From: Mobula hypostoma
Lineage: Eukaryota
NCBI RefSeq assembly: GCF_963921235.1
Contig: NC_086097.1
Span: 97,156,001 to 97,220,000, forward strand
DNA: 64,000 bases
Direction: 5' to 3'
Shown here: one piece after another, positions 8,018-61,937 of the stretch
How the letters are laid out: every line of letters begins with the position of its first letter
How positions within the stretch are numbered: the first letter of the stretch is position 1
Position numbers and translations under genes: made by a program
Notes under the pieces: model-generated
What the model was told of the DNA's origin: nothing
The model's database searches: none
What the model saw: the letters and a program-made list of their open reading frames with translations, nothing else

Positions 8018-8185
8018 ATGGCAGCAATCCGACGGTTGGAGGCCTCCAACGATGGCGCCTCGAAGGAGGGGGATAGAGATTCCACAATCATTTTTGAGAA
8101 CAAATACGAGTTCTGCAGATACAATTTAAAGATCTCTCGTTTCATCAATGCTATCCTGGGCTTTTCAGCCTATGTTTGGGAAGCT
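8018..8185 (+). CDS. EEF1AKMT3: EEF1AKMT3/METTL21B-like paralog A, first coding exon only (exons 2-3 not found; possibly a pseudogene or alternative first exon)
   Basis: MAAIRR...KYEFCRYNLKISRFINAILGFSAYVWEA followed by GTAAGT donor at 8186 (phase 0), the same position as in copies B, C and D; resembles METTL21B [25 protein letters not shown]. Confidence 0.75.
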
Positions 8186-8472
8186 GTAAGTCAACTGATG
8201 AACTACAGCAGGGAAAAGACCGTGTTACGCATGCGCAGCGTTGTATTTACTACCGGGAAAGTGGGGAGGGGCGGTGGTGGTGGTCAAAAAGAAAAAAAAA
8301 AGCAGATACTGTATCCGTCTTTTTAAAGTACTTATCACATCGTGATTTGTCAGTGCTCTAATATAATATCTTTCCTAAAAACTGTATGCAGTAATATCCC
8401 TGTTACCTCTTCCTTAGTCATTTTCATGCGTGTGGATACAATTAATCTAAAGCAGGCATGTTGTCCTTTAAG

Positions 8473-8583
8473 CAACACACATCAAAGTTGCTGGTGAACA
8501 CAGCAGGCCAGGCAGCATCTATAGGAAGAGGCGCAGTCGACGTTTCAGGCCGAGACCCTTCGTCAGGACTAACTGAAGGAAAA
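8473..8583 (-). mobile_element. 111-bp PLE terminal fragment containing a hammerhead motif
   Basis: Flanked by GTTGTCCTTTAAG at 8460-8472 and 8584-8596; minus strand reads AGTC-CTGACGA-AGGGTCTCGGCCT-GAAAC-GTC-GACT. Confidence 0.85.
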
Positions 8584-8869
8584 GTTGTCCTTTAAGTCTA
8601 ATTTCCTTATTTAATGCAAATCCATTTTGAATTTTTAATCTCCTCACTCAGTCCGCTATTGTATCCATCTATGTCCCTGGATAATACTTAAGAAAACAAG
8701 GGTTTATAATTCTGCCATCTTCTAATTGTTACCTCTGTCTTGTACTGTCTGTCCACGATGGGCCTCACAATGTTTTGGATTTTATTTCAAATAACATAGT
8801 GATGAAATGGTTCCCTCTTCTTTCCCAAGCACTATTCCCATACCTTTAGTTTAGTCTCAATAATATTAT

Positions 8870-58003: not shown

Positions 58004-58913
58004 CCCTAATAAGGGAGAAGGAGATGTCCGCATTTCACAGCGAAAGGGGAGACATAACAAACAACTCACTGATTTACGATGTTAAAAGTCCGTTGCGTCG
58101 CTTTTTCCGAGCTCTGTGCCCAAAGAACTCGGGTCTCTGGGCACACAGTCAGAGATCTTCCGTCTCCCACGACATACCGAGTTCCTGCAGAGGCTGCTAC
58201 CTCCAGTCCGCCCACCTCCGGAGCCACGAAATCCCGAAACTCCGAAGGCGTGCTAATCTTCCTTGGTATATCGAATAACAGCCAGTGGTGAGACACTGAG
58301 AACGGGTCCCATTCCCGCAAAGAACCGAAGTCTGCGTGTTACTCCAGGTCAGGGTCTTCAACAGAATCCCGAAAGGGAAAAATAGAGATATTAAAGTGAG
58401 AAATAGAGCTGTTTCCGAAGATGCAAGCAAAGGTGTCGCCGTTAGGCGCCATTGTCTCCCAAGCTCGACCCCCGAGGTTGTGGAAGGGCAGAGACAGAGC
58501 GGCAGATCACCGGAGAGTTAGCGGAGATGTTAACTGAAAGAACACCCCGCCAAAACAAGAAGCTCATTGGACTGCAAACTCGGCGTTTCCTGTTATTATT
58601 GGGCAACATTTTATGATGAAAATTATGACAGACGGAAGGATGAGCCTGAAGTTCACTGTGCAGTCTTGCGCCGCTGTTGCACCAGTGGGCGAAGCACTGG
58701 GTAGGAGCACAGTGAGTTCAAGCTGTCTGCAGAAACAAGGGAGTATCTGCGGTGTGTTTATCTCATTCTTGTTTAAGTTTGCATGTTAGTCTTCCGCGCG
58801 ACGTCAACCTACACTCTTCAATGTCGGCAATAGTAAATAAAAGCACATCTATTATAATGCACAGGAGTTTCCATAGCACAGCTATTCAATTAGTTCTATT
58901 TAATATTCTGTAA

Positions 58914-58965
58914 CTGCTACGACTACTTCTACTACTAATAATAATAATAATAATAATACAATAAT
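58914..58965. repeat. (CTA)n/(ATA)n microsatellite
   Basis: CTACTACTAATAATAATAATAATAATAATA. Confidence 0.85.
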
Positions 58966-61841
58966 GGCGATTTAAAAGTTATTTTATGGTTAGCGTTGTT
59001 GGCTCTATAAGACTTCTAAAGTTCAACCTTATGGCTCGTGTTATCAGAATATGCAGTATTAACAGATTCGATTTAAGCTTTTAGCTCCATTGTTAATGAG
59101 GAATATCTGTTTGCATTTGCAGAGCACCTTTTCACAGTTTACCACCAGAGGTATGTCACTACTGTCATGTTGGAAGTAGAAATGTTGAGCACACCAATCT
59201 CTCGAAAATTTATCAGATGAAGTGTTTCTCATCCCCCTCCCCCCAAAAGGGGTAACAACATGTCGACGGAAGCGCTGTGTAACGGCAGCACGACGGGCGG
59301 CTCCGGCCGTTTAATATCAAGGCTGATCCTGTCCCTACATTCTATTTCTTGCTACGTCTCCTTATCTCTAAATCAGTGTCCAAAGATCCATCATTCTTAT
59401 ATTTCATAGAAGGATGGTATTCAGACCGTCTCTGAGTAATCCCATCAGAGATATTCTCCCACTTACTTCCTCATATCCGACACTCTCGAACACCCATGAA
59501 GAACTAATCCCACCCGCCCTGATTCTCCTGGTAGCCACCTACACTAGGGGAGGTTTATAGGAGCTAGTTAACCTCTCCGTCCTGAATGTACTTAGCAGCA
59601 TGATATCCATGGCCGAATCTTGCTGAAAATTTCATAACAAAAAAGACTACAGTCTTCTGGGCTTAATATTCATGTGTCCGCTGTAGATAACCTCCCACAT
59701 TCCGTCTGTCTGCATTAGAACTGGCAGTTGCTGCCAGTCATAATAGCAACTCCATTTATTCCCCTTTGTGCACCATCTTTCTGGCTGAATATGTCCACAA
59801 ACCCATTGGAAACTCATTTGACAAACGAAAAATGACCATCTTGACCTTAATTGCTACGAAGTGCCAGGTTAAGTCATTTGGTCTCACTCCAATCAGAGGT
59901 ATTGCTATTATCTATCCGATCCCTAACCCACAAATCCCAACCTTTTCTATTAAGTAATACTAACTTGTTTTTTTTCTCTTCCCAGTTCCGATGTGGGATC
60001 CTAGACCGGAGTCGTCGTCTGTTGTTCTTTCTATAAACGCGATCTGTTCTTCTGAGTATTTTCTATCTGGGCTACTTCAGATTTCTAGAATTCTTTGTTA
60101 AAGTTTGCATGTTAGTTACAGAGTGCTTCTACTGAAATGCTGCTACCCTTATATATATTCTCTCATTTCTGTCCTAACGTGTGACCTCTTTTCCGGAAAA
60201 GATGCCCCGCCCAGACTTGTAGAATCTCACTTCTACGGAAACGCTAACGTTACATCCCCCCTCGCCCTGTGGACCCTTCTCTCAGAACATTCACCACGTT
60301 CGTGTAACAAGTCACAATTTTCTGATGTTCGGTCCATTAAGTGTAAATATTGGTGATGGCAAATGTTCCGTTCATCTCTGAATGAATACACAGAACAGGA
60401 CAAGAGTCAACGTGATTCCTGCCATTCAATCCGATCCTGGCCGACTTGCCCAGACGTGAACTCTTTTCTCTGTATCGGATCCCCATAGTCCTCAAGCTCT
60501 CGATGTTTCAAAGATGTTTCCGCGCCGGCCTTAAATACTTGCAATGATCCAGCTTCCACCCCCTGCGGGGTAGACAATTCCAGAAATTCACCACCCTCTG
60601 TGAGAATAAATTTCTCAAGACGGTTTACGACCTAAGCGAGCAGAGTGGGGCTCGATAGAATAGCTCTTCCAAAGTCAACGCATTCTGATGTTTTGCGCCC
60701 ATTTCTCAGGAGGAGACGATTGAAAAGTGAACAAAACCAATCGGCTGCAGATGCTGAGCGGGTCGAGCAGCATCTGTGGGGACGGAACGGAATTGTCCAC
60801 GTTTAGTGCTAGAGAGGAAACTGAGAGAGAGAGTGCACTTCAGAGACAGAGGCAAGTGGGTGATAGCAGGCAAATTGAACTTATGTTTTTCAAACCAGAT
60901 ACGACTAAATTATCAATTGAGCCACGCTACACTATTTTGAGCATTAATTAAATTAACAGCTGCAGAATCCACATTAATTCTAATATTTTGTTTAGAATAT
61001 TATCATTAGATGTTACAATTTTAATGTTATTATACAGAATAGTTTTATTGGAATTGACATCACCGTTGCTATCGTTGACATAATTTTCAATAAATGTTTC
61101 TTTACTTTAGGCGACAACCTTACAAGCAGGTAAACAACCGTTTATAACGAAGATTTTGCCTTTCAGGAAACATCTGTGCACTTAGAAGGCATGTGAGCAC
61201 ATTTTAAGAAAGACACCATGATAAAGTCTAATACTTAATTACTTTTGAACGAGATCGGGAGAATAGAACAATTAGGAAAAAACATCAATATTGGAAATAA
61301 TAATTTGAATTTGATGTGTTGTTTGTAAAGATTACCTTCCGGAAGAAACAATATGCAGTTATGATGGAACAAGTGTTCTTAAAATGTCACACATTAGACC
61401 ATGTTATTACAATTCCTGATACACTCAGCAAAAGATCACGTCACAGGTTGTAACTGACGGAGTTCGACGGGGACTTTGCTAGTGAAAGTAATGTTCATAT
61501 CACTAAAAGACAAGATGACAATATGTTCTAATTTCTTAGATCGGTAAGTGCGCTGAATTGTGTACAGGATATTATTTCACTTGGCAGTTGTATCAATGTA
61601 ACATAACAAATACCACGTGTCCTTCAGCGTTATTCCGTGGTATAAAACAAATAATCTGCCATCATCCTGCTTCAGAACACTCCCGTCCCTCTGTATCAGG
61701 GATTAATACTTGGTGACTTCACAGAAGACTTGCACTGGTATATATCTATATCAGGAACCGGAGACAATCTGCTCTGAACAGGGAGCCCACTGATCATTAG
61801 AGAGAGTGAGCAACGCCGACGACACTAGCTTCCCGTCTGAG

Positions 61842-61937
61842 ATGGAAGAGAAGCAATATGAATTCAGTGGACATCTTTTAAAGATAACGACGTTTAAGGG
61901 AGCCTATCTCGGCGTGTCTGCTTTTGTATGGGAACCT
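61842..61937 (+). CDS. EEF1AKMT3: EEF1AKMT3-like paralog D, first coding exon (remainder presumably beyond the window)
   Basis: MEEKQYEFSGHLLKITTFKGAYLGVSAFVWEP, then GTAAGT at 61938; closest to paralog B exon 1; too short for the ORF track. Confidence 0.85.

What the first reader, a model, noticed from the sequence alone, without database searches (positions are those of the whole stretch)
8018..61937. Tandem expansion of EEF1AKMT3/METTL21B-like lysine methyltransferases (at least 4 paralogs, mixed orientation)
Seen: two complete spliced genes (B 210 aa, C 228 aa) share intron phases 0 and 1 and an identical 112-nt exon 2. Two further first exons are present, giving the arrangement A> <B <C D>. 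Known: mammalian EEF1AKMT3 is a single gene that methylates eEF1A. By eye, B and C share only about half their exon-3 residues, yet both keep motif I (ELGSGTG), the post-I TD, WG and DIVY. Inference: an old lineage-specific family kept under selection, possibly with new substrates.
Basis: partly seen in the sequence, partly recalled or inferred. Interest (0 to 1): 0.72.

Follow-up and report, generated by a model that had tools for sequence, protein, structure and literature searches.

The report
Shark and ray lysine methyltransferase family
Sharks, rays and chimaeras carry a cluster of extra, long-kept copies of an enzyme that has one conserved form in bony vertebrates; the copies keep the methyl-transfer core but have rebuilt the loops predicted to grip the target, so they likely methylate proteins other than the usual one.

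Summary
B (210 aa) and C (228 aa) are intact three-exon METTL21B/EEF1AKMT3-like genes. D is intact too and ends beyond the window. A is only a recent copy of a promoter region and exon 1.

The window is the middle of a 270-kb cluster of seven intact genes next to CAPN3. The true EEF1AKMT3 lies elsewhere, beside TSFM on contig C91.

In a 95-protein tree all 63 extra copies from rays, sharks and a chimaera form one clade (100/98), sister to the cartilaginous-fish orthologue (100/99). An origin before the bony-fish split was not rejected (p-AU 0.185).

The SAM-binding and DxxY residues are kept, and dN/dS is about 0.1-0.35. The N-terminal motif found in orthologues is absent from all 122 paralog rows. 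The three loops that grip the substrate in the related VCPKMT differ between paralog groups (33% identity against 59% elsewhere) yet stay conserved within each group.

Best reading: active lysine methyltransferases with new, group-specific targets. No substrate was tested. Databases annotate the genes automatically; my literature searches found no description of the family.

The parts
8018..8185 (+). A: orphan exon 1 (56 codons, donor GT intact), end of a recent 95-99% identical partial copy of the 5' part of the full genes A1/A2 that lie 26-97 kb upstream of the window
   Evidence: 4 codon differences from A2 exon 1, two of them replacing Gly34 and Asn46; likeness ends about 8257; no + strand exon 2/3 in the window
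20653..20778 (-). Gene B exon 1 (42 codons, phase-0 donor)
17880..17991 (-). Gene B exon 2 (112 nt, motif I ELGSGTG)
   Evidence: one public contig lies on it without differences
15266..15660 (-). Gene B exon 3 (post-I TD, WG, DIVY, stop); B is 210 aa, 89% identical to Hypanus P0103
37898..38068 (-). Gene C exon 1 (57 codons)
36675..36786 (-). Gene C exon 2 (112 nt, motif I)
31721..32124 (-). Gene C exon 3; C is 228 aa, identical to P0001; predicted seven-beta-strand fold closest to human METTL21B
61842..61937 (+). Gene D exon 1 (32 codons); exons 2 and 3 lie beyond the window at G000:C1:97223723-97223834 and from 97229795; D is 219 aa, identical to P0091

Best explanation
B, C and D are intact members of a METTL21B-derived gene family spread across cartilaginous fishes, and they likely act as SAM-dependent protein lysine methyltransferases on targets other than eEF1A Lys-165, each paralog group likely with its own target. 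Shown: gene structure, intact catalytic motifs, the clade, the separate syntenic orthologue, and loop-specific divergence. Inferred history: a copy of METTL21B left the TSFM locus in the ancestor of sharks, rays and chimaeras, settled beside CAPN3 and multiplied in tandem; duplication and decay continue (A1/A2, fragment A). Inferred mechanism: SAM binds through motif I, the post-I Asp and WG; the DxxY Asp holds the target lysine as in VCPKMT; the three rebuilt loops choose the protein. The C91 orthologue likely keeps the eEF1A job.
For: Fold: best PDB sequence hit 4QPN, E 1e-55; model pLDDT 81, TM 0.81/0.91 to 4QPN. Catalytic columns kept: motif I Glu 100%, post-I Asp 98%, WG 99%, DxxY Asp 94% and Tyr 98% of 122 paralog rows. 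Tree: 63 of 63 paralog rows in one clade, 100/98; with the 7 chondrichthyan orthologues 100/99. Synteny: the C91 gene lies 17 kb from TSFM exons and about 134 kb from METTL1-family exons on the same contig; the cluster lies next to CAPN3, with VPS39 0.46 Mb away. Selection: dN/dS 0.075-0.35 in the 28 old pairs where it could be estimated, of 44. Specificity: N-terminal motif in 106 of 109 bony and 8 of 8 chondrichthyan orthologue rows, 0 of 122 paralog rows. Orthologue-conserved columns lost in paralogs: 8 of 14 in the three loops, 5 of 64 elsewhere. Loop identity is 0.61 between bony and chondrichthyan orthologues (rest 0.59), 0.31 between bony orthologues and paralogs (rest 0.50), 0.33 between groups (rest 0.59) and 0.68-0.85 within groups (rest 0.77-0.85). 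The same three loops surround the substrate loop in VCPKMT-p97 (PMC10339199, passages). Two of three intron-bearing eEF1A loci keep Lys at the 165 column, so the orthologue has its substrate. Expression: two numbered Eef1akmt3 copies have low counts in a skate fin table; one contig in run X1 fits a B exon 2-3 join.
Against: No activity or substrate was measured. No METTL21B-eEF1A structure was consulted; the loop roles are carried over from VCPKMT. I set the loop limits, so the enrichment (p 1e-4) is not an independent test, and loops vary faster than cores in general. Both protein sets are the top 120 hits of profiles built from their own kind (of 337 and of 379), which inflates the motif contrast, and some paralog models may lack their true N-terminus. 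dS is saturated (16 of 44 old pairs not estimable). The AU test did not reject an origin before the bony-fish split (p 0.185), and the tree did not recover bony METTL21B as one clade, so the root is weak. Expression evidence in this species is thin and the runs are only guessed to be RNA.
Confidence: 0.62

Rival explanations
1. The copies still methylate eEF1A (Lys-165 or nearby) and are kept for dose or to divide expression among tissues, stages or eEF1A paralogs.
For: Their closest characterised relative is highly specific for eEF1A Lys-165 and is inducible (PMC5416902, passages). The genome has three intron-bearing eEF1A loci that differ around this site, one with Ala at the 165 column.
Against: Residues almost invariant in orthologues across bony and cartilaginous fishes (Pro17, Leu22, Phe23, Gln44, Ala53 and the KM..EH loop) are replaced in the paralogs, and differently in each group. 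Three eEF1A loci are few for eight or more groups. The orthologue is intact.
Confidence: 0.17
2. The family is older than cartilaginous fishes: an early vertebrate duplicate of METTL21B that bony vertebrates lost. This changes the history, not the enzyme function.
For: Holding bony and chondrichthyan orthologues together costs 7.9 log-likelihood units and is not rejected, p-AU 0.185. The bony rows are not monophyletic, a sign of a weak root.
Against: The free trees join paralogs and chondrichthyan orthologues at 100/99 in both taxon sets. Every paralog-like protein that I could name came from a cartilaginous fish; 2 of the 10 looked up had no name.
Confidence: 0.2
3. Some copies have moved to a non-lysine or small-molecule acceptor, for example in the methylamine chemistry of urea-retaining fishes, or are catalytically dead binders.
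For: The fold family includes a histidine methyltransferase (4RFQ). The C80b copy reads GVVY in place of DxxY and C9 reads EIVY. Urea and methylamine retention in these fishes is recalled, not from a call.
Against: B, C and D keep the full DIVY motif and the Trp before helix 1. All characterised METTL21 members are protein lysine methyltransferases (PMC10238732, passages).
Confidence: 0.1
4. The cluster is mostly decaying duplicates or assembly artefact with no kept function.
For: A is a fragment; two more A-type fragments lie at C1:98.01 and 98.17 Mb and a broken copy on C80; A1 and A2 are 99.6% identical.
Against: B, C and D are 49-63% identical to each other, have open frames and canonical splice sites, and have 84-89% identical counterparts in other rays. 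This rival fits only A and the fragments.
Confidence: 0.04

Closest known systems
Human METTL21B / EEF1AKMT3 (eEF1A-KMT3; PDB 4QPN)
   Same: Seven-beta-strand fold with N-terminal hairpin (TM 0.81/0.91, 45% identity), motif I, post-I, WG and DxxY; same clade against METTL21A/C/E; same three-exon plan as the C91 orthologue.
   Different: Not at the TSFM locus; many copies; N-terminal FPxDxxLF motif absent; three substrate-side loops rebuilt; substrate untested.
VCPKMT / METTL21D-p97 complex (PDB 8HL7; PMC10339199)
   Same: Same family (PF10294) and same order of strands and helices in my model; gives the three-loop picture of substrate gripping and the role of the DxxY Asp.
   Different: Only 28% identical, with a different substrate; used as a structural guide, not as an orthologue.
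FAM86 / eEF2-KMT duplications of higher primates (PMC10238732, passage)
   Same: Lineage-specific multiplication of an elongation-factor methyltransferase of the same family.
   Different: There most copies are pseudogenes in recent segmental duplications; here several groups have stayed intact across sharks and rays, more than 270 million years by the date quoted in PMC11979771.
METTL21A, METTL21C, METTL21E
   Same: Same subfamily and motifs; likely separate genes for these exist on C18 and C21 of this genome (weaker hits; not placed in a tree).
   Different: The window's genes fall outside them (branch support 100/99).

Membership tests
Seven-beta-strand lysine methyltransferases, family 16 (PF10294, METTL21 subfamily) | Seven-beta-strand fold | tested here: met
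   Model of C, pLDDT 81; the first ten fold matches are METTL21B/A/C/D
Seven-beta-strand lysine methyltransferases, family 16 (PF10294, METTL21 subfamily) | Motif I, post-I acidic residue, WG and DxxY (motifs named in PMC5416902; WG role in PMC10339199) | tested here: met
   All present in B, C and D
Seven-beta-strand lysine methyltransferases, family 16 (PF10294, METTL21 subfamily) | SAM-dependent methylation of a protein lysine | not testable with these tools
   Needs an enzyme assay
METTL21B clade (broad) | Groups with METTL21B against METTL21A/C/E | tested here: met
   100/99 in the 95-row tree, 96/99 in the 39-row tree
EEF1AKMT3 orthologue (strict) | Lies beside TSFM, near METTL1 (the human order is recalled; P0077 is annotated within the TSFM locus) | tested here: not met
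   TSFM and METTL1 families map to C91 beside another copy; the window lies beside CAPN3
EEF1AKMT3 orthologue (strict) | N-terminal FPxDxxLF motif and KMRxEH loop (defined here from the alignment, not from a paper) | tested here: not met
   N-terminal motif in 0 of 122 paralog rows against 114 of 117 orthologue rows; loop residues replaced
EEF1AKMT3 orthologue (strict) | Methylates eEF1A Lys-165 | not testable with these tools
   The lysine exists at two of three eEF1A loci; activity unknown
Chondrichthyan-only subfamily | Duplication after the split from bony vertebrates | tested here: inconclusive
   Favoured at 100/99, but the alternative is not rejected, p-AU 0.185

The most novel reading that the evidence does not exclude
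Cartilaginous fishes have their own set of eight or more lysine methyltransferases, each with a fixed new target, which arose with urea retention and cap exposed lysines of key proteins, shielding them from urea-derived carbamylation or unfolding. That would be a lineage-wide protein-protection system beside TMAO. The urea link is recalled physiology and a coincidence of distribution only; the weaker form (new targets, any purpose) is the best explanation above.
Probability: 0.07. Interest if true: 0.85.

Novelty: new variant of a known kind. Interest (0 to 1): 0.5.

Why it matters
Enzymes of this family are usually single genes with one dedicated target each. Here one of them seeded many stable offshoots in one vertebrate class, with the core held and the target-side loops swapped. 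This gives a natural series for learning how these enzymes choose a substrate, and it points at residues (the N-terminal motif, the KMRxEH loop) that probably read eEF1A in the human enzyme. It also predicts lysine methylation marks peculiar to sharks and rays. In practice, the database name 'EEF1A lysine methyltransferase 3-like' should not be read as eEF1A activity, and at least one chimaera protein named EEF1AKMT3 (P0117) falls among the paralogs. It remains a gene-family expansion without a known phenotype.

Tried and rejected
A as a fourth whole gene: rejected; no downstream exons on its strand. Splicing of A exon 1 to D exon 2, 59.5 kb away, is phase-compatible but untested.

Expression: no listed holder of C exon 3 is on record as RNA (11 of 13 listed runs hold words of it, 4 hold half or more). 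The one laying of 4 runs on 7700-21100 was swamped by repeats, and 307 joints and 44,090 pieces were not shown. The bin holding the start of A exon 1 had no cover; this says nothing either way.

Co-expansion of eEF1A to match the enzymes: not seen; three intron-bearing loci plus intronless copies (a lower bound).

The AU test of bony monophyly did not finish and was not repeated. The left-hand neighbour of the cluster was not found in 90 kb. SNAP-25-family hits gave no close neighbour. No complex prediction was run.

Literature, 10 searches. METTL21B + shark: 1 unrelated paper. EEF1AKMT3: 56 papers, 40 listed, none on cartilaginous fish by title or abstract start. 'methyltransferase 3-like' + elasmobranch: 0. 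METTL21 + cartilaginous + expansion: 0. 'lysine methyltransferase 3' + shark + transcriptome: 1 unrelated. Chondrichthyan / gene family expansion / methyltransferase / eEF1A, 3 of 4 terms: 4 papers, 3 listed, unrelated. PF10294 + shark: 0. One search was too loose to inform; two searches were for background. The catshark genome supplement could not be read and may hold tissue expression for these genes; the catshark pancreas supplements had no hit. Earlier scan findings: none in 3 look-ups.
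Full report
Where this is. The window is G000:C1:97,156,001-97,220,000 of a 3.48-Gb genome. Proteins identical to genes C and D are named 'EEF1A lysine methyltransferase 3-like' from Mobula hypostoma in the protein collection, so the organism is a devil ray or a very close relative.

The genes. B and C are complete, with GT-AG introns in phases 0 and 1 and a 112-nt exon 2; they give 210 and 228 aa and are 49% identical. Exon 2 matches in length only (78 of 112 bases). 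D continues beyond the window and gives 219 aa. A is a fragment. Its exon 1 differs from that of the full gene A2 at 4 of 56 codons, its likeness to A2 stops at about 8257, and a permissive search found no exon 2 or 3 on its strand in the window.

The cluster and the rest of the genome. Searches with exon 3 of C and of B returned the same 16 places (lower bounds). Mapping 300 kb around the window gave seven intact genes between 96.99 and 97.26 Mb (G1, A1, A2, B, C, D, E) plus fragment A. Two more A-type fragments lie at 98.01 and 98.17 Mb. Further copies lie on C9 (start codon not located), C80 (one open, one broken) and C91. The three weakest places, on C18 and C21, are probably METTL21A and METTL21C/E; I did not put them in a tree. 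The C91 copy sits 17 kb from TSFM exons and about 134 kb from METTL1-family exons, and the database files it under the TSFM locus (P0077). That neighbourhood is the human EEF1AKMT3 one (recalled). The window's cluster lies beside CAPN3 (best PDB hit calpain-3), with VPS39 at 97.72 Mb.

How far it spreads. The 120 listed hits of a paralog profile (of 337) were all from cartilaginous fishes; by my count 15 of them lie on one Heptranchias contig and 11 on one Heterodontus contig (a few are fused models). Callorhinchus has at least four on one contig (P0117, P0151, P0280, P0431). An orthologue profile returned sharks, a ray and a wide range of bony vertebrates (120 listed of 379); no chimaera orthologue appeared among them, which does not show loss.

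Tree. With 95 hand-picked rows (17 bony, 7 chondrichthyan orthologues, 63 paralogs, 8 outgroup), the paralogs form one clade (100/98) and join the chondrichthyan orthologues at 100/99. C and D have counterparts in both rays and sharks; B has counterparts in other rays inside a shark-and-ray clade with D and E. The elasmobranch ancestor is dated to more than 270 million years in PMC11979771 (passage). Against this: the bony rows do not form one clade, and in a 39-row subset an origin before the bony split was not rejected (p-AU 0.185).

Selection. Nei-Gojobori dN/dS over 196 codons was 0.075-0.35 in 28 of 44 old pairs and not estimable in 16; B against C gave 0.14 with dS 2.8. Saturation makes these rough. 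Open frames kept at 84-89% identity across ray families point the same way.

What changed in the protein. The model of C is a seven-beta-strand methyltransferase closest to human METTL21B. Across 122 paralog rows the catalytic columns are kept at 94-100% (P0008, P0025, P0026 and P0047 were left out as partial, unrelated or fused, and four rows identical to this genome's genes were replaced by them). The N-terminal FPxDxxLF motif is in 106 of 109 bony and 8 of 8 chondrichthyan orthologue rows and in none of the paralog rows. In the VCPKMT-p97 structure three loops surround the substrate loop: before helix 1, at the DxxY motif, and after strand 7 (PMC10339199, passages). The same elements are found in my model. 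In these loops 8 of 14 orthologue-conserved columns are lost in paralogs, against 5 of 64 elsewhere. Loop identity is as high as the rest between bony and chondrichthyan orthologues (0.61, 0.59), much lower between groups (0.33, 0.59; lower in 27 of 28 pairs), and about level within groups (0.68-0.85, 0.77-0.85). Change after duplication followed by fixation is what a shift of substrate would leave. The caveats are that I drew the loop limits after seeing the columns, that the sets are profile-selected, and that the loop roles are borrowed from a 28% identical enzyme.

Substrate side. Human METTL21B is specific for eEF1A Lys-165 (PMC5416902, passages; PMC10238732, passages). Two of three intron-bearing eEF1A loci here keep that lysine and one has Ala (the column was placed from Ser-163 and recalled numbering). 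So the C91 gene can keep the old job, which frees the copies.

Expression. Weak. A 207-nt contig in run X1 lies with 146 letters on B exon 2 and 32 bases of intron 1 without differences. Its other 61 letters match, by depth arithmetic (0.723 against 0.72), the bin that holds the start of exon 3. The joint itself was not listed, and the run is only guessed to be RNA. In the little skate genome paper's table of anterior against posterior fin, Eef1akmt3-4 and -6 appear with mean counts of 14 and 10 (PMC10115646, supplement search and passages); I cannot assign them to groups, and one model also carries an unrelated domain.

Novelty and verdict. The genes carry automatic names and are numbered in a supplement, but my searches found no paper that describes the family; subscription journals and one unreadable supplement are outside that. 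They belong to the METTL21B clade but fail the strict orthologue tests. I rate this a new variant of a known kind, interest 0.5, with 0.62 on active enzymes with new targets.

Noticed in passing
L029:6861-7010 (-), G000:C1 about 97,106,861-97,107,010: A lone exon resembling the PH domain of phospholipase C delta (E 2e-13 to PDB 1MAI) between A1 and A2; no PLC catalytic-domain match nearby.
   Followed up: partly
L072-L079 (-), G000:C1 97.30-97.37 Mb: Calpain-3 gene next to the cluster; CAPN3 is muscle-biased in mammals (recalled).
   Followed up: partly
L065 (G000:C76, 26.05 Mb): A third intron-bearing eEF1A gene with Ala at the Lys-165 column; two intronless copies share that reading.
   Followed up: partly
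L055-L056 (G000:C80, 19.217-19.224 Mb): Open-frame paralog C80b in which DxxY reads GVVY, possibly inactive, with a near-identical counterpart in another Mobula species.
   Followed up: partly
proteins P0123, P0124, P0125, P0130, P0145: Unnamed proteins with two to six tandem METTL21C/E-like domains, perhaps fused models of a parallel tandem expansion in another fish lineage; taxa not looked up.
   Followed up: no
window 35151-35983: 33-nt unit repeated 25.5 times inside intron 2 of C; further tandem arrays at 41950-42934 and 44350-44976.
   Followed up: no
window 56639-57703 (+), 49090-51109 (-), 40318-40962 (-): Long frames that look like reverse-transcriptase and endonuclease pieces of retroelements (by eye, not searched).
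   Followed up: no
G000:C1 97.03-97.16 Mb and 98.00-98.18 Mb: Blocks of 93-99% identity in mixed orientation around A1, A2, A and the two distant fragments: recent segmental duplication or a locally difficult assembly.
   Followed up: partly
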